Below the pieces are notes generated by a model. That model saw only the letters and a program-made list of their open reading frames with translations, searched no databases and was not told the DNA's origin. This document shows, piece by piece, positions 4,140-32,644 of a DNA stretch of 64,000 nucleotides (the stretch's first letter is position 1; each line of letters starts with the position of its first letter). The DNA is taken from the sequence record DRR378314_1864; one strand, 5' to 3'. The position numbers were made by a program, and so were the translations under genes.

Positions 4140-7100
4140 CTAATCGTCCAGAGACAACAAGGTGGCGTTACCACCAACGGCAGTAATATTATCACTACGC
4201 GTTTTTTCGGTAATAAAGCGGGTCAAGTAGTGTGGACCACCGGCTTTCGGTCCGGTACCTGACATACCTCGACCACCAAATGGTTGTACGCCAACAATCG
4301 CACCTATCTGGTTACGGTTAATGTACACGTTACCTACATCAATGCGGCTTGCCACGTCGTGAGCAAAGGTTTCGTTACGGCTGTGAATACCAAAAGTTAA
4401 ACCAAAGCCTGTGTTATTAATACTCTCGATAACCTCGTCAATTTCACTTGTTTTAAAGCGAATAACGTGCAGAATTGGCCCGAAGTTTTCTTTCACCAGC
4501 TGGCTGATACTGTCGATTTCGATCGCTGTAGGCGCAACAAAGGTACCACCCATAGCGTAATCTGGCAGTGGCGCGCGAGCAATCAGTCGACCGGCCTGCT
4601 GGATATCAGATATGTGCTGTTCCAGGTTGGTTTTTGCAATGCCGTCTATAACCGGACCAACGTCGGTTTCATGCAGCAGTGGGTCACCAACTTGCAGCTC
4701 TTCCATAGCGCCACGTAGTAAGTCGAGAACACGATCAGCAACATCATCCTGTACGAATAGAACTCGCAGGGCTGAACAACGCTGTCCCGCACTCTGGAAG
4801 GCACTGGCAACGATATCGGTGACAACTTGTTCCGGCAGAGCGGTAGAGTCAACCATCATGGCGTTCTGTCCACCGGTTTCAGCAACCAATGGCACAATTG
4901 GACCAGTACGTGCCGCTAGTGCCCGGTTAATGGCCTGAGCGGTATAAGTTGAACCGGTAAAGCAAACACCACCAATGTCTTCCTGGCTGGTTAAATAGCT
5001 ACCGACCTCGGCACCACTGCCAGGCATAAAGTGCAATACGTTACCCGGAATGCCTGCTTCCAAAGCCAGCTGCACTGCGCGGTATGCGATAAGCCCAGTT
5101 TGCTCTGCCGGTTTAGCAATAACTGAGTTACCGGTAACCAAAGCGGCTGCAACCTGGCCGACGAAAATGGCAAGAGGGAAGTTCCATGGGCTAATACAAA
5201 TGAAAGTTCCACGGCCTTCAACAAATAGCTCATTGTCTTCGCCTGTCGGACCCGGTAACTGAATAGGGCCACCCATGAGTTCACGCGCCTGATTGGCGTA
5301 ATAGCGACAGAAATCAACGGCCTCGCGAACTTCGTCGATCCCGTCCTGTAAGCCTTTTCCTGCTTCTACAGAACACAGAGCGATAAGCTCGTTGCGGTTA
5401 GCTTCCATTAAGTCGGCAAATTTCTCTAAACATTCCGCTCGCTCGTCGGTAGGAACCTTACGCCAGGATTTGTAGGCAGCGTTCGCACTTTTCAGTGCCT
5501 GTTCAGAGAGTTTTTTATCACCCCAGTAGATACTACCAACCTGCTTCGAGGTTTCCTGAGGGCTGGTAATACTGACGTGGTGATCGGTTTCTATGGTTTT
5601 CCCATCGACGATGGGGCCGCCTTGCCATTGTTTGTCACGGTACTGTTGAACCGCTGCAATAAAATCATCTGCTTGTGAGTGAATATTCATATTCAATCCT
5701 AATGAATTTGTGCGATCCCCATACATTTCTGAGGGAAGTGGAATTTTGCTGTTTGCGTACTTCTCGTAGCCGGACGCGGTTTTCATCGGGTGCTCGACTA
5801 AGTCATTGACCGGTGTGTCTGCATCTAGCAGTTTGTGGACAAACGACGAGTTAGCACCGTTCTCCAGAAGCCGGCGGACTAAATACGGCAACAAATCTTT
5901 GTGAGGGCCTACTGGTGCGTAGATACGTACCACCATACCTGGATTTTGCTCCATTATGGTGTCGTATAAGCTATCACCCATGCCGTGCAAACGCTGATAC
6001 TCAATTCTACGCTGGTGGGTCTCATTCATTTGTTGAATGGCCATAAAGGTTTGCGCGTTGTGAGTCGCGAATTGCGGATAAATGGCACCGTCAGTGTCGT
6101 CACTTAGTAAGTAACGGGCACAGGCCAGGTATGAAATGTCGCTGTGTGACTTACGAGTAAATACCGGATAACCAAGTAAACCGTTTTCCTGAGTCCACTT
6201 AATTTCGTTATCCCAATAAGCCCCTTTTACCAAACGAACAGGAATTTCATCGCCACACTCTTTTGCCAGTGCGGTTATCCAGCACAAGGTTGGTAGTGCA
6301 CGCTTCGAGTAGGCCTGTACAACCAAACCAAAACGTGGCCAGCCTTTACAGACGCCGCTGCGGTAGACTTTCTCAAACAGCTCCATTGAAAGCTCGTGGC
6401 GATCGGCTTCTTCGGCATCAATGGTCACACCAACATCGGCTTCTTTGGCCAGCTTGACCAGTTCAGTCAAAGTGGTGGCCAGCTCAGTTAGTACACGTTC
6501 GTGATTTGATGCTTCATAACGAGGGTGCAAGGCTGACAATTTAATTGAAATTGTTGGCCGTGGTGCATCCGGGTTATTGAACTCTTCTTTGGTGATCGTC
6601 TTGATTGAGTTGACGTATTGCTGCTTGTAGTAATCCGCATCCTTCATAGTTAATGCGGCTTCGCCAAGCATATCGTAAGCGTGAGTGTAACCCTTGTCAC
6701 GGTTATCACGGCTTTCTTTCAAGGCTTCCTCGATGGTACGTCCCAATACGAACTGCTTACCCATAATTTGCATGGCGGTATAGGTTGCCTTGCGAATAAT
6801 GGGTTTACCGAGTTTGCGAACAAGACGACGGAAAGCACCACGAGGTGTTTCCATGGCTTTGCCTGTAGGGTTTGTCACACTGTTTGTCAGTGCCAGCCCC
6901 CAGGTACCTGAGTTAACTAACCAGGACGCGCTCTGGCCCATATGTTTCTGCCAGTCTCCGCCGGAGAGTTTATCTTGAATTAACGCGTCGGCTGTATAAG
7001 CATCAGGAATTCGCAATAGTGCCTCGGCAAGGCACATTAAAATAATACCTTCTTTGGTATCTAGGCTGTACTCTTGCAGAAATGCGTCGACGACGCCGTT

Positions 7101-7307
7101 ATCTGCCTGTTCCCTCACTTGCTCAACTAACTTAGCTGCGCGCTCGGTTACTGCGCTAACCGTATCATCATCGGCAGGAACCAGCGGCAACAGCTCACGC
7201 ATATATTCGTCTTCATCAACAATATAATTGTCAGTAATTGCCTGCTGTAAGGACTTTAAGTCCTCAGCCTGATGCTGTTTGGATAGCACCTCACTCGCTT
7301 TGAACAT
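4140..7307 (-). CDS. putA: bifunctional proline dehydrogenase / P5C dehydrogenase (no N-terminal RHH domain)
   Basis: YDMLGEAA, IKLSALHPRY, RLVKGAYWD, YLVRRLLENGAN, ETGGQN, GQRCSA; ATG 7307 has a CAGGAG SD. Confidence 0.96.
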   Translation of the reverse strand: MFKASEVLSKQHQAEDLKSLQQAITDNYIVDEDEYMRELLPLVPADDDTVSAVTERAAKLVEQVREQADNGVVDAFLQEYSLDTKEGIILMCLAEALLRIPDAYTADALIQDKLSGGDWQKHMGQSASWLVNSGTWGLALTNSVTNPTGKAMETPRGAFRRLVRKLGKPIIRKATYTAMQIMGKQFVLGRTIEEALKESRDNRDKGYTHAYDMLGEAALTMKDADYYKQQYVNSIKTITKEEFNNPDAPRPTISIKLSALHPRYEASNHERVLTELATTLTELVKLAKEADVGVTIDAEEADRHELSMELFEKVYRSGVCKGWPRFGLVVQAYSKRALPTLCWITALAKECGDEIPVRLVKGAYWDNEIKWTQENGLLGYPVFTRKSHSDISYLACARYLLSDDTDGAIYPQFATHNAQTFMAIQQMNETHQRRIEYQRLHGMGDSLYDTIMEQNPGMVVRIYAPVGPHKDLLPYLVRRLLENGANSSFVHKLLDADTPVNDLVEHPMKTASGYEKYANSKIPLPSEMYGDRTNSLGLNMNIHSQADDFIAAVQQYRDKQWQGGPIVDGKTIETDHHVSITSPQETSKQVGSIYWGDKKLSEQALKSANAAYKSWRKVPTDERAECLEKFADLMEANRNELIALCSVEAGKGLQDGIDEVREAVDFCRYYANQARELMGGPIQLPGPTGEDNELFVEGRGTFICISPWNFPLAIFVGQVAAALVTGNSVIAKPAEQTGLIAYRAVQLALEAGIPGNVLHFMPGSGAEVGSYLTSQEDIGGVCFTGSTYTAQAINRALAARTGPIVPLVAETGGQNAMMVDSTALPEQVVTDIVASAFQSAGQRCSALRVLFVQDDVADRVLDLLRGAMEELQVGDPLLHETDVGPVIDGIAKTNLEQHISDIQQAGRLIARAPLPDYAMGGTFVAPTAIEIDSISQLVKENFGPILHVIRFKTSEIDEVIESINNTGFGLTFGIHSRNETFAHDVASRIDVGNVYINRNQIGAIVGVQPFGGRGMSGTGPKAGGPHYLTRFITEKTRSDNITAVGGNATLLSLDD

Positions 7308-7532
7308 AGCATCTCCTGTGTAGCCAGGCCGAAGCTCGGCGTGCTTCCCCAAAGTTGGGAATCGGCGCAAGTATAAGCTTATTTTTGCGCGGGTAAAGAC
7401 CCTTCATGGTCGGATCTCACGTTGCAACTTTTCACCCTTGGTGTCAAGTGAACTAAATGCCCGTGTTTGTTGACCGTTAGCCGCCAAGCCAGTACCTTTA
7501 ATCTAACTTATTAAACGCATCGGAATCGATTT

Positions 7533-9032
7533 ATGTCACAAGAAGTTGAGCTCAAGTTACTGATTGCTCCAGAACAGCGAGAAAAAGCGCTCGAAGTCTG
7601 CCAGTCGTTGGCGGATTCTCATCAGGCAAAACCCCGCAAAGAGCAGTTTGAACTCAAAAATGCCTACTTTGACACGTCCGATTTACGTTTACGTCAGTTC
7701 GATATTGGATTACGGATACGTAGCGATAAAGATCATAAAGAGCAGACAGTGAAATTGGCTGGTCGGGTTATGGGCGGCATGCACCAAAGGCCAGAGTATA
7801 ATATTGACATTGATAGCGACAAACCCGACTTAACCTTGTTTGATAACGAAATATGGCCGGAGGACTTTCCGGTTTATGATATTCAGCGTGACTTGGACAC
7901 CTTGTTCGTTACCGACTTCACCCGAACCCGTTGGCGGCTTCCCAGCGGCGAAGGTGTTATCGAAATGGTTCTTGATGAGGGATATATAGAATCGGGCGAG
8001 CAGCGAGAGCCAATAGCGGAGATTGAACTGGAGTTACAGGGCGGTTCTTTGGCCGAGGCCTATCGACTGGCACAGGAGTTAGTGAAAAAAGCCGGTGCGC
8101 GAGTAGGCTCGTTAAGTAAAGCGGCAAGAGGCTATCTGCTGGCCGGAAAAAGCTTGCTGGAGCCTTTTACACAAATGCACTACGTACCAATCCACTCTGA
8201 GCAAAATGTGGGCCAGGCGCTTTACCGGTCGCTGGAATCGGGCTTGCGCCATTGGCAGCACAACGAAGCGTGCCTGGACTTCCAGCCCAGTGTCCGGGCG
8301 GTACAGGGAATGGCGGACGGTATGCAAATGGTGCGGGTTGTGTTGGAACAACTTATTGAGAACGGGGTTGGTGAACGACGGTTGCTGACCGGCATCTCGC
8401 AAATAACCGCAAAACTGCAATGGTTGAAGCGATTTGAAGGGCTGGATGAGTTAACCGCTGAAGATGGTGCTTATCATCGCGCGCTTAAGCGTTACAGCAA
8501 ATTGTATGAATCTTTAGTCAACAGTCAGGAGGATGTTATTCGCCTGAATGAAGTTGCTGAACTGGTGCATTCTGCGGCATACCAGAAAACCGTACTGGGA
8601 TTGTCAGAGTTTTTGTTGAAAGAAGAAATGACAGAGGAGCTGGAGCAGCCGGTTTTACCCTGGAGCAGTCAACTTTTGAAAAGCGACTGGCAGCTGGTAC
8701 AAACGGCATTTTCTGAGCATGAAAAGCTCAGTGAAGAAGGGTATCTTAAGCTGCTGACACCCTTGCAAAACAGCCTTTTGATGGGAACTTGCTTCGGACA
8801 TTTGTTTGATGCTGACTTGAGAGAAAGCTTCCGGCTGCCGTGGCAGGATTTAGCCCGGGGTATTCGTGAAATTACCGCTTTGCATATTTTGCATGAGCGT
8901 ATTCGGGACCGCGACGATGAAGTGGATGAAAAACTGATGGACTGGCAAAAAGTACAGCGTGAGTCCCTGTTAAAAGCTCTTGAATATTCGCGTAAAGCTG
9001 CGCTGAAACGTGAACCATACTGGTTAAATTAA
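7533..9032 (+). CDS. ygiF: CYTH + CHAD domain inorganic triphosphatase
   Basis: EVELKL, NAYFDT..LR, EIELEL, SKAARGY; C-terminal EPYW; upstream of glnE. Confidence 0.85.
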   Translation: MSQEVELKLLIAPEQREKALEVCQSLADSHQAKPRKEQFELKNAYFDTSDLRLRQFDIGLRIRSDKDHKEQTVKLAGRVMGGMHQRPEYNIDIDSDKPDLTLFDNEIWPEDFPVYDIQRDLDTLFVTDFTRTRWRLPSGEGVIEMVLDEGYIESGEQREPIAEIELELQGGSLAEAYRLAQELVKKAGARVGSLSKAARGYLLAGKSLLEPFTQMHYVPIHSEQNVGQALYRSLESGLRHWQHNEACLDFQPSVRAVQGMADGMQMVRVVLEQLIENGVGERRLLTGISQITAKLQWLKRFEGLDELTAEDGAYHRALKRYSKLYESLVNSQEDVIRLNEVAELVHSAAYQKTVLGLSEFLLKEEMTEELEQPVLPWSSQLLKSDWQLVQTAFSEHEKLSEEGYLKLLTPLQNSLLMGTCFGHLFDADLRESFRLPWQDLARGIREITALHILHERIRDRDDEVDEKLMDWQKVQRESLLKALEYSRKAALKREPYWLN

Positions 9033-28932: not shown

Positions 28933-29018
28933 GGCGCTGTGGTGGAATTGGTAGACACGCCTGATTCAAAATCAGGTTCCTTCTGGGAGTGACGGTTCAA
29001 GTCCGTCCAGCGCCACCA
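28933..29018 (+). tRNA. leuX: tRNA-Leu(CAA), leuX-type
   Basis: Acceptor GGCGCTG/CAGCGCC-A-CCA, D-loop GGAATTGGTAGAC, anticodon arm CCTGA-TTCAAAA-TCAGG, long variable arm, GGTTCAAGTCC. Confidence 0.97.
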
Positions 29019-29127
29019 AGTTTTTCACTACCTTTAAGGTAGACTAATTCCTTTTTTATTTCGTACAGATATGCGGTTCAATTGGCCTCTTTAATATTTT
29101 TCGAGTGCTATTATCTATCGAGCATTA

Positions 29128-29318
29128 TCAACATGGGAATCTGCTCCGACAAGAAGTGCCTTTCTGACTTAGGCCACTAGAACGTATTCTTGGACAAGTG
29201 TCTGCCACAGTGCGTTAGACCAGCATGCTCGACTCATAAATCACCTAGTTGGTTAAACATGGCGACAAATTAAGTCATCTGCAAACTCGTTCCTAGGTAT
29301 GGTTCCAGTTAAACTTAT
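29128..29318 (-). pseudogene. decayed IS66-like left end and frameshifted tnpA accessory gene fragment
   Basis: ATAAGTTTAACTGGAACCATACCT end-like motif, then SD and MSRACWSNALWQTLVQEY / frameshift / SSGLSQKGTSC, resembling the IS66 TnpA W..L.....SGLS...FC pattern. Confidence 0.4.
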
Positions 29319-29356
29319 TAAAGCGCAGGCGAATTTTTTAGTTAATTTACCTGAAA

Positions 29357-29394
29357 CTAATTCAACAACCCAGGCTTTCAGCTTGTTGAATTAG
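29357..29394. terminator. 12-bp perfect inverted repeat downstream of the deaminase gene
   Basis: CTAATTCAACAA-14nt-TTGTTGAATTAG, 20 nt past the stop; weak U-tract. Confidence 0.5.
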
Positions 29395-29414
29395 CTTATA
29401 AGTTTATAGAAATA

Positions 29415-31439
29415 TTATTCAATAAATGGTTCTACTTCTGAGGCGTGATAATACTCTCTTTCATTCTTAAATAATTTAAATACTACTTTTTTTGGATTAC
29501 AATCATCAAGATAAGCAATCGTTTTTTCATCTGTAATTCTATAATCAGATTTGTGTTTATCGTTGACCTTATCAATCCACCATTTACCGCCAGTTTTTCT
29601 CACAGTGCTAACGATCTCACCCTGTAGGATATCACCATTTTCATAGGTTTTACCTATCTCCACTGTGGGTCGTATTGAATTTGCAAGTAGGAAGTTGTTT
29701 TTCCCGGGACTCAGTTTGAAATAAACTCGTAAGCCTTCAAATAAGCTATTTTGATATGCCGGTTCGGCACAAGACGTTTTAAATCCATAATCGAAAGGAT
29801 AATCTTTTCTTAAAGAATCAATTTTATTGATCATATTAAAGCTTTCGTTTCCACGGTAAATCTTAATGTGAGATTTAAACTCAGCATCAAATACTTCCTC
29901 TTTTGAACTAGCAATGTCTTTTGCTGTTTTAATAGCTGTGTAGATATCCTCTTGTTCCTCATTGAAAGCATAGATCTCCAGAGGAATTTTAATGCGGGGA
30001 CTAGTGTATTTACCTTTCTGAGTGAAAATTGTTCGAGCTTCTGGGTCTTTTCTTTTAATCCGTGCGCTGGATCCTAGTCCCATAGTAGAAAATAAATCTA
30101 AATAGCGATTTGGTCCAACACCTGTAAATGATTGAAAAGTCACCTTGTCGGGAGTCTTTTCTTCAATGGAGATGGCGTCATCATGAAGTTCTGTTGCTTT
30201 ACTTTTAGGGTAAGGTTCTATGTAAATAACTTTGCTTACACCACTTGCGATAATATGCTTTGCACAGTTGTGACAAGGAAATGTCGTGCAGAATAAAGTT
30301 GTATTTTTTACATCAGCACCAATTCGTAAGGCACTCATTAAAGCTGACATTTCAGCGTGAACAACACGGCCGAATTCAGTAAGGTCTTTTAATCTTGTTT
30401 CCTCACGTAGTACTTGTGCTATTTCCTCTTCCTTTAAATTGGCATTCACTTCGGAAGTTTTTATTCGTAAATTTGAGATTAACGATTGGGCTATTTGTCT
30501 AGATAACTTATCAATTTCTATTGAGTTAGCATCGTAGCCTAGCGCTGCATCTCTTTTATCACCAGATGCTCCGGCATTTTCTTCTGTCAAAGGTAAATAG
30601 ATTTCATCCGGCCAGTATTTCCCGCCCCCACTTTTTTGGACGTCATTTGAACCTGTGGCGATGATGTCATCCTCTTTTGAGGTAATGACGGCACCAACTT
30701 GACGCGAAAGATCAGCGGAGTTGACAGATGACATAAAAGCCATAAACATCGAGTGTTCCTCTGCTGTAGGGCTTATATTTGGAGCTCCGAGTATTAAGTC
30801 GATAAACCGTTCGATAGTTGACTTTAAGTTTTCTTCGGTATTTACGAAAAAGTCAGATTGGACAAAAACTTTTGAAATTTCATTTTTCTCTAAACTTTCG
30901 GCGATCTTATTAGCAAACCCATTTTCCGGATTAATAGAGTATTTTAAAGAGTCGAGAACTCTATTTAAATTTTTTCTTCTACTTTCTGGTGAACTGGTTA
31001 ATCCAAATTGGAAAAAACCTTCTTTATATAAAGATTTTAAACAATTGGAATCTTTAGAGTCGTTCAAATTGGTTACAAGGTAAACAGTTCCTGACCTTTT
31101 GTTTTCCTTACAAAAATTTTTATTATTTTTTCTGCTGCTTTTAATTTTATCGATAGTGAGAGATGCGCTAATTGAATTGAAAGGATTTTCGTCATTCAGT
31201 TCTTGCTGATATTTTTTTTGTCTTTCAAGTAGACGGAAGGCGGTGCAACCGGTCTCTGGAACGTAATCTTCAGCTTCTTTAAGCTTATTCAGAACTAGGT
31301 TAGAGGTAGAGATAACTTGATAATGCCACTTATGCTCTTGAATAAGTGACTTTAGGTATTTAATCGTCTCTTCTTGACTAACCCCTATTGGAGACGTCAA
31401 TCCAAAAACGAGTTCATGATAATTGGTGGTGAATTTCAT
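29415..31439 (-). CDS. anti-phage dCTP/dCMP deaminase (AvcD-like) with C-terminal cold-shock-like repeats
   Basis: ELVFGLTSPIG kinase-like N-terminus; SADLSRQVGAVI, GRVVHAE (30351-30359), TTFPCHNCAKHI (30264-30278), YIEPYPKS, FTGVGPNRY. Confidence 0.88.
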   Translation of the reverse strand: MKFTTNYHELVFGLTSPIGVSQEETIKYLKSLIQEHKWHYQVISTSNLVLNKLKEAEDYVPETGCTAFRLLERQKKYQQELNDENPFNSISASLTIDKIKSSRKNNKNFCKENKRSGTVYLVTNLNDSKDSNCLKSLYKEGFFQFGLTSSPESRRKNLNRVLDSLKYSINPENGFANKIAESLEKNEISKVFVQSDFFVNTEENLKSTIERFIDLILGAPNISPTAEEHSMFMAFMSSVNSADLSRQVGAVITSKEDDIIATGSNDVQKSGGGKYWPDEIYLPLTEENAGASGDKRDAALGYDANSIEIDKLSRQIAQSLISNLRIKTSEVNANLKEEEIAQVLREETRLKDLTEFGRVVHAEMSALMSALRIGADVKNTTLFCTTFPCHNCAKHIIASGVSKVIYIEPYPKSKATELHDDAISIEEKTPDKVTFQSFTGVGPNRYLDLFSTMGLGSSARIKRKDPEARTIFTQKGKYTSPRIKIPLEIYAFNEEQEDIYTAIKTAKDIASSKEEVFDAEFKSHIKIYRGNESFNMINKIDSLRKDYPFDYGFKTSCAEPAYQNSLFEGLRVYFKLSPGKNNFLLANSIRPTVEIGKTYENGDILQGEIVSTVRKTGGKWWIDKVNDKHKSDYRITDEKTIAYLDDCNPKKVVFKLFKNEREYYHASEVEPFIE

Positions 31440-31469
31440 ATTTTTCCGTAAGTTAACTATTAAATACTA

Positions 31470-31499
31470 AAGTTAACAGACTCATTTATTGCAATACAA
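31470..31499 (-). promoter_or_regulatory. candidate extended -10 promoter of the deaminase
   Basis: Minus strand TTGTAT-18bp-(TGt)TAACTT, overlapped by a GTTAACT-12-AGTTAAC inverted repeat. Confidence 0.35.
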
Positions 31500-31618
31500 T
31501 ACTTTTAGTTATAAAAATGACTGTGAGTGATATGGGTACCTTCTAAAAAATTAGACCATTGCGATAAAAAATATTAGGTGTGTTCTGTAAGTACGAAGCA
31601 ACTCATTAGGCGTAAGCG

Positions 31619-31650
31619 AAAATGCCAGAAGCGCAAAAGCACTTCTGACA
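31619..31650 (-). terminator. intrinsic terminator of the CBS gene
   Basis: Minus strand TGTCAGAAGTGC-TTTT-GCGCTTCTGGCA-TTTT (two G-U pairs). Confidence 0.65.
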
Positions 31651-31661
31651 TATAATTGATT

Positions 31662-32249
31662 TCAGTCAATGACCTCATGATGATTTATCGCTGAAATAAT
31701 TTCCGCAAAAGTTGAGGGCAGGTGATAAACGTTTACTGACTCCCCTGTTAATTCAGCTATTCTAAGAGATGACACTACGCCACAGACTTCTCCATCGTTA
31801 ATCACGAGAAGAAAGTCGCGGCCACTGGCTTTGAGAGTTGCCGCTGCGTCACCGATTTTAGCTTTCTTTAAGTCCTCAAGTCTTACCTGTGGTAATGCCA
31901 CCAGAGGTAACATCAACTCTTTTACTGCCAATTCCCGCCAGCCAATTTGCTTGACGGTACTTAGCTGAGTTGCTTTGCGTCCGTGAAGCTCACGCAATGC
32001 CAGTAAACCTGTCATTTCATCACTTTGATTTTTTATGCAGGCGTAGCGGAGGTTGGCATTACGAAGCTTTTGCTCTGCGTCGCTGACCAGAGTGCTCTCC
32101 TTTATTTCTAGAGGAGATACTTTTGTGAAATCATCAACAACATGCGTAGCACTATCGTGCCAGCTAATTAACGGTTGATGCTCATAGTTGTGGTGTATTG
32201 CAATTTTATCGGCTGCAGAAGACCATTGAATTTCTTTAAACTCACTCAT
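31662..32249 (-). CDS. stand-alone CBS-pair domain protein (proteobacterial family)
   Basis: SATHVVDDF..P, LAVKELMLP, AKIGD..TL..SGR..LLV, GVVSS..I, TFAEI pattern; strong AAGGAG SD. Confidence 0.8.
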   Translation of the reverse strand: MSEFKEIQWSSAADKIAIHHNYEHQPLISWHDSATHVVDDFTKVSPLEIKESTLVSDAEQKLRNANLRYACIKNQSDEMTGLLALRELHGRKATQLSTVKQIGWRELAVKELMLPLVALPQVRLEDLKKAKIGDAAATLKASGRDFLLVINDGEVCGVVSSLRIAELTGESVNVYHLPSTFAEIISAINHHEVID

Positions 32250-32255
32250 GACAAA

Positions 32256-32294
32256 CTCCTTTAAAAATTAAAAAAAATACAGAATTTTTAAAGG
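32256..32294 (-). promoter_or_regulatory. SD-sequestering stem-loop
   Basis: Minus strand CCTTTAAAAATT (32294-32283, includes the uORF stop) pairs perfectly with AATTTTTAAAGG (32269-32258, includes AAGG of the SD). Confidence 0.75.
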
Positions 32295-32644
32295 TGAGCG
32301 GGTGGCCCCCGGACGAGATGCCAATTCCATTGGGTAAGCTTCGGTTCGCTTTTCTCCTGAGATAGAGGAGCAAGCGCTAAGACGTTTTGAAAAACTCGTG
32401 AGGATGCGTCGATTGCTTTATCGAATTCGGGATCTTCTGCCTGAATTTCAGATATAGGCGATGACAGGTCTACAATGAAAACAGCGTTGGAATTTTGCTG
32501 CGCCGTTAGCTGTTTTTCACTAATTTCGCCAGATGCGGCGTAGCTGGCTGTACTGAAAACGATGAGTAATAAACACAGCAATACCCGATAGCTCCACTGT
32601 TGGAGCCCGTTTAATTCGGTTGTAGTTGCTGAATATTTTTGCAT
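32288..32644 (-). CDS. secreted leader protein with C-terminal RGPP arrest-type motif
   Basis: Signal peptide (RVLLCLLLIVFSTASYA/A), polar linker, ends WNWHLVRGPPAHL*. Confidence 0.78.
   Translation of the reverse strand: MQKYSATTTELNGLQQWSYRVLLCLLLIVFSTASYAASGEISEKQLTAQQNSNAVFIVDLSSPISEIQAEDPEFDKAIDASSRVFQNVLALAPLSQEKSEPKLTQWNWHLVRGPPAHL

What the first reader, a model, noticed from the sequence alone, without database searches (positions are those of the whole stretch)
29418..29879. Anti-phage dCTP deaminase fused to two cold-shock/OB-fold-like domains
Seen: after an intact Zn-deaminase domain (HAE, PCHNC) the protein continues for about 154 further residues made of two similar units. Unit 1 (res about 521-591, FKSHIKIYRGNESFNMI...DYGFKTS...SLFEGLRVYFKLSPGKNNFLLANSIRP) aligns by eye with the cold-shock domain pattern (GTVKWFN..KGFGFI...DVFVH.S...LKEGQRVEF...G..G..A.NVRP). 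Unit 2 (res about 605-671, LQGEIVSTVRKTGGKWWI...DYRI...KKVVFKLFKNEREYYHASEVEP) repeats the layout. Known: AvcD and E. coli dCTP deaminase are kinase-like plus deaminase proteins that deplete dCTP during phage infection; I do not know of this tail in the characterised members. Inference: a variant defence enzyme with a built-in single-stranded nucleic acid binding module that may sense phage nucleic acid or hold an inhibitory RNA.
Basis: partly seen in the sequence, partly recalled or inferred. Interest (0 to 1): 0.8.

Follow-up and report, generated by a model that had tools for sequence, protein, structure and literature searches.

The report
Phage-defence dCTP deaminase with OB-fold tail
A bacterial anti-phage enzyme that destroys the DNA building block dCTP here carries a rare extra tail predicted to fold like two small nucleic-acid-binding barrels, which may show how such enzymes are kept off until a phage attacks.

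Summary
The ORF at 29415-31439 (minus strand, 674 aa) is a complete kinase-like plus zinc-deaminase protein of the anti-phage dCTP deaminase (AvcD/DcdV) family (PADLOC E 1e-126; HAE 361-363, PCHNC 388-392). After about residue 514 it carries a roughly 160-residue tail that no Pfam, NCBIfam or PHROG model matches. AlphaFold2 with 11 homologues (pLDDT 89, pTM 0.84) gives two beta-barrels, each with the order b1-b2-b3-helix-b4-b5. Unit 1 superposes on E. coli CspA (Z 9.5, 2.0 A, 68 of 69 residues). Unit 2 is a more divergent OB-like barrel (best Z 5.4-5.5). Sequence alone does not show this: unit 1 versus unit 2, and unit 1 versus a Csp profile, give E about 0.04.

The tail is very rare. I found 11 other proteins, always fused to this deaminase, in 3 of 185,579 species genomes, and none stand-alone. 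It is under purifying selection (dN/dS 0.16-0.21). The gene is a 2.6-kb single-gene insertion beside tRNA-Leu(CAA), absent from the nearest genome.

Nucleic-acid binding and a sensor role remain inference, and the canonical RNP1 aromatics are not kept in unit 1. I rate it a new variant of a known defence enzyme, of moderate interest.

The parts
29415..31439 (-). Whole gene, 674 codons plus stop: a dCTP deaminase variant with a C-terminal tail
   Evidence: ORF list and translation. PADLOC dCTPase E 1e-126.
30765..31439 (-). Residues 1-225: N-terminal P-loop kinase-like domain (GLTSPIGV at residues 13-20)
   Evidence: Covered by the NF041025 and PDLC02373 profiles. Aligned with the P-loop region of 10 tail-less members.
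30084..30764 (-). Residues 226-452: zinc cytidine/dCMP-type deaminase domain. HAE is at 30351-30359 and PCHNC at 30264-30278.
   Evidence: Pfam PF00383 E 6.1e-17, residues 233-407. PDB dCMP deaminases E 4e-10. Motifs invariant in 11 of 11.
29898..30083 (-). Residues 453-514: C-terminal region shared with tail-less family members, ending in a helix
   Evidence: The PADLOC profile extends to residue 514. Family alignment.
29664..29888 (-). Residues 518-592: tail unit 1, a cold-shock-domain-like five-stranded barrel. Conserved YP[FY]DYGF and LLANSI.P.
   Evidence: AF2 model mdcdd2a703779, pLDDT about 90. CspA 1mjc Z 9.5, rmsd 2.0, 68 of 69 residues. Unr CSD1 Z 9.2.
29418..29642 (-). Residues 600-674: tail unit 2, a divergent OB-like barrel. 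Conserved W620, aromatic 621, H629, S631-D-Y633.
   Evidence: AF2 pLDDT 89-97. Best matches are Unr CSDs and SmpB at Z 5.4-5.5. Foldseek aligns both units to tandem-CSD proteins (RNase II E 2.6e-4).
29027..31621 (.). 2,595-bp insertion that carries only this gene. The nearest genome has about 21 bp here instead.
   Evidence: Empty site in G001. GC 0.38-0.41 against about 0.48. Empty and filled forms coexist in run X1.
28933..29018 (+). tRNA-Leu(CAA). The insertion starts 8 bp after its 3' end.
   Evidence: ARAGORN. Rfam tRNA 61.7 bits.
29027..29414 (-). 388-nt non-coding spacer between the stop codon and the tRNA. It has strong predicted structure, including a long hairpin just after the stop.
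   Evidence: Fold z-score -3.14, 0 of 100 shuffles as stable. RNA-library contig at 29035-29208. No similarity in L023-L026.
31440..31621 (-). 182-nt upstream part of the insertion, where a 5' AvcI/DifV-like RNA would be expected
   Evidence: No unusual structure (z +0.66). No Rfam hit. Conserved only with the same-genus locus.

Best explanation
The gene encodes a working member of the anti-phage dCTP deaminase family (AvcD/DcdV type: P-loop kinase-like domain plus zinc deaminase). On infection such enzymes convert dCTP/dCMP to dU nucleotides and starve phage DNA synthesis. A small marine gammaproteobacterial clade has added, at the C-terminal end, a rigid tandem of a cold-shock-like barrel and a second OB-like barrel.

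My preferred mechanism is inferred, not shown. The tandem would be a single-stranded RNA-binding regulatory module that helps hold the inhibitory RNA, either a cognate AvcI-like RNA or abundant short-lived cellular RNA, on the enzyme. When a phage shuts off host transcription and that RNA decays, the module empties and the deaminase is released.

Shown here: family membership, intact catalytic motifs, the predicted folds, rarity, purifying selection and the mobile defence-island setting. Inferred: RNA binding and the direction of regulation.
For: Enzyme:
- PADLOC dCTPase E 1e-126 over residues 6-514.
- NF041025 E 9.9e-114.
- PF00383.
- HAE and PCHNC invariant.

Fold:
- AF2 with 11 sequences gives pLDDT 89.4 and pTM 0.84; four of five models are at 87.9 or above.
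- Unit 1 against CspA: Z 9.5, 2.0 A, 68 of 69 residues. 35 chains reach Z>=8, almost all cold-shock proteins or CSDs, many solved with RNA or ssDNA.
- A search independent of Foldseek puts Unr CSD1 on top at Z 9.2.
- Foldseek aligns both units to tandem-CSD RNA enzymes: RNase II E 2.6e-4, Unr CSD1-2 E 4.6e-4, then Dis3L2, Rrp44 and RNase R.
- Conserved aromatics lie on strands 2 and 3 of unit 2 (W620, aromatic 621, H629, Y633) and on strand 3 of unit 1 (Y547, Y551, F553).

The tail is functional:
- dN/dS is 0.16 and 0.21, against 0.08-0.15 for the enzyme domains.
- It is kept in Idiomarina, Rheinheimera and Alteromonas.

Link to RNA control, from papers of which I saw passages only:
- AvcI RNA binds and inhibits AvcD and decays on transcription shut-off (PMC10511110).
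- Two of five DifV-insensitive DcdV mutations are K511E and Q514R (10.1101/2021.03.31.437871). These lie in the C-terminal end of a family whose members are 513-576 aa, which is where this tail is attached.

Defence setting:
- Single-gene insertion at tRNA-Leu.
- Homologues lie next to a reverse-transcriptase-protease gene, and next to two kinases and a STAND ATPase.
Against: - No nucleic-acid binding was tested, and a shared fold shows no function.
- By sequence the tail is not a CSD: no PF00313 hit, and hhalign E 0.04 with probability 1.3%.
- The RNP1-equivalent position in unit 1 is [SG][FLV]N[MV]I, so most clade members lack the aromatics there.
- Net charge is near neutral.
- Unit 2 matches known OB folds only at Z 5.4-5.5, a range the tool flags as possibly a common arrangement.
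- I found no conserved or structured upstream RNA, although the DifV RNAs of other species are reported to lack sequence similarity too.
- The NCBIfam score, 380.6 bits, is 19 bits under the curated cut-off of 400.
Confidence: 0.4

Rival explanations
1. The tandem barrels are a protein-protein or oligomerisation module. They would assemble or stabilise the deaminase oligomer, or lock it in an inactive form, without binding nucleic acid.
For: - OB barrels that form protein rings appear among the Foldseek matches: mycobacterial Mpa tandem OB domains at E 4.5e-3 to 3e-2, and the PAN N-domain at Z 3.4.
- RNP1-type aromatics are lost in unit 1.
- The tail is not basic.
- pTM 0.84 indicates that the two units pack as one rigid body.
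Against: - The best and most numerous matches are nucleic-acid-binding CSD and S1 domains.
- Conserved surface-type aromatics remain on strands 2 and 3.
- Tail-less family members evidently function without such a module.
Confidence: 0.25
2. The tail is an activating sensor. It would bind a phage-made ligand, such as single-stranded DNA or RNA replication intermediates or a phage single-strand-binding-type protein, and switch the deaminase on. That would give this clade a trigger different from transcription shut-off.
For: - The fold is the same as for the best explanation.
- Viral S1, LEF-3 and SSB-type proteins appear among the BFVD matches (E 2.7e-4 to 9e-2), showing the fold's wide use on single strands.
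- No conserved 5' RNA was found at these loci.
Against: - No evidence for any ligand.
- The characterised family members are controlled by loss of an inhibitor, not gain of an activator (passages).
- The charge is near neutral.
Confidence: 0.2
3. The tail is a decaying or accidental read-through extension with no function, or an assembly or annotation artefact.
For: - No family model matches it.
- It is confined to a dozen sequences.
Against: - dN/dS is 0.16-0.21.
- 42 invariant columns across 11 sequences at 32-82% identity.
- The fold is predicted with confidence.
- The same open frame is found in three named genera and in independent runs X3 and X4.
Confidence: 0.03

Closest known systems
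Anti-phage dCTP deaminase / AvcD (DcdV) of E. coli and Vibrio cholerae (PADLOC dCTPase PDLC02373; NCBIfam NF041025)
   Same: - N-terminal P-loop kinase-like domain plus C-terminal zinc deaminase in one chain.
- HAE and PCxxC motifs.
- Carried on mobile or defence DNA.
- The E. coli enzyme is described as a 576-aa kinase plus deaminase (passage).
   Different: - About 160 extra C-terminal residues forming two barrels. None of the 13 tail-less members examined has them (3, 10; ten of them are aligned).
- The score is just under the NCBIfam cut-off.
- No 5' inhibitor RNA is recognisable.
DcdV homologues 'with a nucleic acid binding domain' (Mannheimia, Bibersteinia), mentioned once in preprint 10.1101/2021.03.31.437871
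   Same: The concept is the same: a DcdV/AvcD core fused to a putative nucleic-acid-binding domain (passage).
   Different: The passage gives neither the domain's family nor its position. Its Table S4 could not be opened. My tail searches returned no protein with a Pasteurellaceae source name. The three hits that carry a name are Idiomarina, Rheinheimera and Alteromonas, the same three genera as in the named genome records. The other 8 hits and the single hit are unnamed. So that domain is probably different or a very distant form.
Bacterial cold-shock proteins (CspA/CspB) and the tandem cold-shock domains of RNase II/RNase R, Dis3L2 and Unr
   Same: - Unit 1 superposes on CspA over 68 of 69 residues at 2.0 A, Z 9.5.
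- Two barrels in tandem, as at the N-terminus of RNase II/R.
   Different: - No detectable sequence membership.
- RNP1 aromatics are not kept.
- There is a short helix between strands 3 and 4, more like S1 or classic OB folds.
- The tandem does not superpose as a rigid body (rmsd 11-13 A over about 175 columns).
- It is attached to a deaminase, not a nuclease.

Membership tests
Anti-phage dCTP deaminase (AvcD/DcdV; PDLC02373, NF041025) | Kinase-like P-loop domain followed by a zinc deaminase domain in one polypeptide | tested here: met
   Profiles cover residues 6-514 and 9-452. The protein aligns end to end with 10 members.
Anti-phage dCTP deaminase (AvcD/DcdV; PDLC02373, NF041025) | Catalytic H-A-E and zinc-binding P-C-x-x-C motifs | tested here: met
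   H361-A-E363 and P388-C-H-N-C392, invariant in 11 of 11.
Anti-phage dCTP deaminase (AvcD/DcdV; PDLC02373, NF041025) | Score above the curated NCBIfam equivalog cut-off (400 bits) | tested here: not met
   380.6 bits. In the class sample only 4 of the 10 genomes with a match passed the cut-off. I therefore read this as a divergent subfamily, not an exclusion.
Anti-phage dCTP deaminase (AvcD/DcdV; PDLC02373, NF041025) | Patchy, mobile, defence-island location | tested here: met
   - 2.6-kb insertion at tRNA-Leu, absent from the nearest genome.
- Present in 4 of 41 relatives.
- Neighbours in other genera are an RT-protease gene, kinases and a STAND ATPase.
Anti-phage dCTP deaminase (AvcD/DcdV; PDLC02373, NF041025) | Cognate small inhibitory RNA encoded just 5' of the gene (AvcI/DifV) | tested here: inconclusive
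   - No Rfam hit.
- No unusual structure in the 182-nt upstream stretch.
- No conservation across 5 loci beyond the genus.
- Known DifV RNAs are reported to lack sequence similarity as well.
Anti-phage dCTP deaminase (AvcD/DcdV; PDLC02373, NF041025) | dCTP/dCMP depletion on infection and protection from phage | not testable with these tools
   This needs phage plating and dNTP mass spectrometry.
Cold-shock domain (Pfam PF00313) | Sequence match to the family profile | tested here: not met
   - No PF00313 hit at E<=10 for the tail or for either unit.
- hhalign against 16 Csp sequences (16 of the 17 loci; my script missed one): unit 1 E 0.04 and probability 1.3%; unit 2 E 0.091 over 13 columns.
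Cold-shock domain (Pfam PF00313) | Five-stranded antiparallel barrel that superposes on Csp structures | tested here: met
   - Unit 1: CspA Z 9.5, 2.0 A, 68 of 69 residues; 35 chains at Z>=8; Unr CSD1 Z 9.2.
- Unit 2: only Z 5.4-5.5, so inconclusive for that unit.
Cold-shock domain (Pfam PF00313) | RNP1 (K-G-F-G-F-I) and RNP2 (V-F-V-H-F) aromatic motifs on strands 2 and 3. The motifs are recalled, and are also seen in the 16 Csp sequences. | tested here: not met
   - Unit 1 has [SG][FLV]N[MV]I at the RNP1 position.
- Strand 3 carries D-Y-G-F instead of V-F-V-H-F.
- Unit 2 has K-W-[WYF]-I and S-D-Y, which are aromatic but not the motifs.
OB fold (general) | b1-b2-b3-helix-b4-b5 barrel topology | tested here: met
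   DSSP of the model shows E16-23, E31-33, E47-49, H56-61, E66-74, E80-87 in unit 1, and E100-112, E115-118, a two-residue strand at about 129-130 (seen in the DSSP string, too short for the tool's element list), H134-143, E147-154, E160-167 in unit 2. This is a prediction, not a solved structure.
OB fold (general) | Binding of single-stranded nucleic acid or oligosaccharide on the strand 2-3 face | not testable with these tools
   I could not read model coordinates, so no surface or electrostatic analysis was possible. No RNA or protein docking tool was at hand.

The most novel reading that the evidence does not exclude
The tandem barrels make this enzyme an antitoxin-free version of the AvcID system. 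Instead of a dedicated AvcI small RNA, the built-in cold-shock-like module would bind bulk, short-lived cellular RNA. The protein would then read the cell's transcription state directly and fire when a phage shuts transcription off. That is a one-gene sensor and effector, consistent with the insertion carrying only this gene and only 182 nt of upstream sequence.
Probability: 0.12. Interest if true: 0.75.

Novelty: new variant of a known kind. Interest (0 to 1): 0.5.

Why it matters
How nucleotide-depleting defence enzymes are held inactive, and how they detect infection, is only partly understood. For AvcD the known answer is a labile RNA that binds the protein, but where and how it binds is not known from the passages I read.

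Here a putative RNA-binding module is fused naturally to the enzyme's C-terminal end, the region where two of five RNA-insensitive mutations map in the Vibrio enzyme. This gives a compact, testable handle on that question: delete or mutate the tail and identify what it binds.

It also adds a cold-shock-type domain to the list of sensor or regulatory add-ons seen on defence effectors. If the tail proves to be only an oligomerisation device, the finding is a minor architectural variant.

Tried and rejected
- **Family libraries on the tail.** Pfam at E<=10, NCBIfam and PHROGs gave no real hit; GH97_C E 0.03-0.11 and GpsB E 0.1 are noise.
- **Tail profile against PDB sequences.** Only BlaR1 at E 0.39, which I rejected.
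- **ESM Atlas on residues 515-674.** No usable hit.
- **First AF2 run with 4 sequences.** Unit 1 came out below pLDDT 40 and was unusable. Only unit 2 was read from that model.
- **Complex prediction, residues 1-504 against the tail.** The verdict was 'no answer' (score 0.00; the alignment was not used by the tool). This counts neither for nor against docking.
- **Stand-alone tails of 93-307 aa.** None among 1,097 candidates. This search is word-based, so the absence is weak.
- **Viral contigs.** 273 pattern matches, none confirmed.
- **AvcI-like RNA.** Rfam found only the tRNA. The upstream 182 nt has z +0.66. The mafft alignment of five upstream regions is conserved only within the genus. 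The promoter scan gave 10 sites against 8.6 expected, so I did not use it.
- **The 396 bases 29019-29414 (the 388-nt spacer plus the 8 bp after the tRNA) against plasmids.** No match. No ORF of note in stop-to-stop frames of 45 aa or less.
- **Earlier findings of this scan.** Nothing.
- **RNA-library contigs of run X6.** They cover only 29035-29208 and 30297-30623 of the island. The uncovered parts say nothing, and DNA carry-over cannot be excluded.
- **Literature.** No paper held 'AvcD' with 'cold shock'. The three listed of the four papers with 'dCTP deaminase' and 'OB-fold' do not appear to link them: two are on unrelated topics by title and abstract start, and in the one I opened the two terms stand in separate contexts. 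None of the 15 listed of 32 papers contained 'cold-shock domain'.
- **The Mannheimia/Bibersteinia variant.** I could not fetch it.
Full report
**1. What is at the coordinates.**
The finding lies in the 3' part of a 674-codon ORF on the minus strand, 29415..31439. The coordinates 29418-29879 are residues 521-674.
- Pfam finds a cytidine/dCMP deaminase domain, PF00383, E 6.1e-17, residues 233-407.
- PADLOC's dCTPase model matches residues 6-514 at E 1e-126.
- NCBIfam's 'anti-phage dCTP deaminase' NF041025 matches residues 9-452 at E 9.9e-114. Its 380.6 bits are just under the curated 400-bit cut-off.
- A PHROG of unknown function covers residues 8-454.
- H361-A-E363 and P388-C-H-N-C392 are invariant in all 11 aligned relatives.

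In an alignment with 10 tail-less family members taken from other genomes (open frames 513-571 aa), those proteins end opposite residues about 505-550 of this one.

**2.
By sequence alone it is not demonstrably so.
- No Pfam, NCBIfam or PHROG model hits it.
- A profile of it finds nothing real among PDB sequences.
- Unit 1 against unit 2 gives no BLASTP alignment. The hhalign E-value is 0.048 with probability 1.1%. That alignment does pair the invariant D-Y of YPFDYGF with the D-Y of HKSDY, and LRVYFKL with KKVVFKL.
One correction applies: the RNP1 position (GFGFI) is matched by SFNMI, not by DYGF.

**3. Predicted structure.**
The structure prediction settles the fold question better.
- A first AlphaFold2 run with 4 sequences modelled only unit 2.
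- With 11 sequences at 32-82% identity to the query, the tail gave pLDDT 89.4 and pTM 0.84. Both units show the order strand1-2-3, helix, strand4-5.
- Unit 1 superposes on E. coli CspA at Z 9.5, rmsd 2.0 A, 68 of 69 residues. 35 chains reach Z>=8, almost all cold-shock proteins or domains such as CspB, YB-1, Lin28 and Unr.
- An independent all-against-representatives search puts Unr CSD1 first, at Z 9.2, 2.6 A, 71 of 72 residues.
- Foldseek aligns both units to proteins with tandem cold-shock domains: RNase II E 2.6e-4, Unr CSD1-2 E 4.6e-4, then Dis3L2, Rrp44 and RNase R. The rmsd is 11-13 A, so the relative orientation differs.
- Unit 2 is more divergent. Its best matches are Unr cold-shock domains and SmpB at Z 5.4-5.5. 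The tool warns that this range can reflect only a common arrangement, though the hit lists are nearly all OB, S1 or CSD barrels.

I conclude that unit 1 is a cold-shock-like barrel (about 85% sure) and unit 2 an OB-like barrel (about 70% sure).

**4. How common is it?**
- The single-sequence scan of 1.84 billion representatives found one protein, P0004.
- The word-based search found 2 proteins with the sequence and 11 with the profile. All are 666-674 aa deaminases, apart from one 435-aa fragment. Three are named Idiomarina aminovorans, Rheinheimera sp. NSM and Alteromonas confluentis.
- No stand-alone tail turned up.
- The tail was found at 3 loci in one-genome-per-species contigs of 185,579 species, at 1 metagenome locus and at none in viral contigs.
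- Among 41 relatives, 4 have a family member, and only one of these carries the tail.
- In a 400-genome class sample, 10 have the family and none exceeds 571 aa.

So the architecture is rare, not common.

It is also maintained by selection. dN/dS for the tail is 0.16 (window against I. aminovorans) and 0.21 (Rheinheimera against L026). The enzyme domains give 0.08-0.15.

**5. Genomic setting.**
- The nearest held genome matches the flanks at 99-100% but lacks window 29027-31621. About 21 bp stand there instead.
- The 2,595-bp insertion begins 8 bp after tRNA-Leu(CAA). It has low GC and contains only this gene.
- The CBS-like gene upstream is core.
- In coded run X1, an empty-site contig (depth about 226) and the filled form (depth 10.5, 0 differences) coexist. 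Runs X3 and X4, from other studies, also hold the island.
- I. aminovorans has the gene at the same tRNA, with an IS30-like transposase ORF in between.
- A. confluentis has it downstream of its own tRNA-Leu(CAA), behind a reverse-transcriptase/trypsin-like protease gene.
- Rheinheimera has it behind two Ser/Thr kinases and a STAND ATPase.

All of this fits a mobile defence gene.

**6. Mechanism.**
What follows from the papers rests on passages only.
- The E. coli enzyme is a 576-aa kinase plus deaminase. It removes dCTP on infection and is escaped by T7 mutants in transcription-shut-off genes (10.1101/2021.04.26.441389).
- AvcI RNA binds and inhibits AvcD, and decays when transcription stops (PMC10511110).
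- DifV is encoded just 5' of dcdV in the same orientation. DifV-insensitive mutants include K511E and Q514R (10.1101/2021.03.31.437871).

The tail is grafted onto that same C-terminal end, and its best structural relatives bind single-stranded RNA or DNA. I therefore favour, at about 40%, an RNA-holding regulatory module that couples activity to RNA decay.

Several points count against this:
- RNP1 aromatics are not kept in unit 1.
- The charge is near neutral.
- Unit 2's fold match is weak.
- I found no recognisable 5' RNA.

The rivals are an oligomerisation or protein-binding module (25%), an activating sensor of phage single strands or proteins (20%), and a functionless extension (3%). The co-folding test of the enzyme body against the tail gave no answer and is not used.

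**7. Comparison and novelty.**
The protein works like, and by architecture and motifs belongs to, the AvcD/dCTP-deaminase family, as a divergent subfamily. The tail works like a cold-shock/OB module but fails sequence membership of PF00313.

I found no paper that describes this fusion. One preprint sentence mentions DcdV homologues with 'a nucleic acid binding domain' in Mannheimia and Bibersteinia. None of my tail searches returned a protein with a Pasteurellaceae source name, though most of the hits are unnamed.

Verdict: a real, rare, selected new variant of a known defence enzyme. Interest is moderate (0.5).

Noticed in passing
window 29027-31621 (joint 29026/31618): In coded DNA run X1, and in the RNA-library run X6 of the same sample, a contig joins 29026 to 31618 with 17 other letters between. 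This is the empty site, at depth about 226 (DNA) and 18.9 (RNA library). The island-bearing contig has depth 10.5. So strains with and without the defence gene coexist in one sample.
   Followed up: partly
window 29027-29414: The 388-nt spacer between the deaminase stop codon and tRNA-Leu folds far better than shuffles (z -3.14) and has a long hairpin right after the stop. A 174-nt contig from an RNA library (29035-29208, 0 differences) maps there. It is absent from the I. aminovorans, Rheinheimera, Alteromonas and L026 loci. It could be a terminator or 3' UTR, a small RNA, or DNA carry-over.
   Followed up: partly
L001 3628-4611 (= L023 about 6616-7599): In Idiomarina aminovorans an IS30-like transposase ORF (HTH_38 plus rve, 327 aa) lies between the same deaminase gene and tRNA-Leu(CAA). 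The window has no such ORF.
   Followed up: partly
L025 2302-6510: In Alteromonas confluentis, tRNA-Leu(CAA) is followed by a 544-aa reverse transcriptase fused to a trypsin-like peptidase, and then by the tailed deaminase. The 3' flank of tRNA-Leu(CAA) thus looks like a defence hotspot in two genera.
   Followed up: no
L024 547-4123: In Rheinheimera sp. NSM, two adjacent Ser/Thr protein kinase genes (357 aa each) and a 450-aa STAND/AAA ATPase gene lie directly upstream of the tailed deaminase. They may be another defence system.
   Followed up: no
L002, L003, L004 (genomes G010, G014, G023): Three other genomes of the same genus carry tail-less dCTP deaminase family members (open frames 513-547 aa, 33-36% identical). 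So the genus holds at least two lineages of this defence gene.
   Followed up: partly
window 31662-32644: Two core genes lie just upstream of the insertion. One is a 195-aa protein with only a weak CBS-domain hit (E 4e-4, below the cut-off). The other is a 118-aa protein with no family. The terminator-like hairpin of the first (31651-31622) abuts the insertion boundary.
   Followed up: no
window 31473-31500 (+): A promoter-like site (TTAACA, 16 nt, TACAAT; 10 of 12) lies on the plus strand inside the 182-nt upstream stretch and points away from the deaminase gene. The scan as a whole was not above chance (10 sites against 8.6 expected).
   Followed up: no
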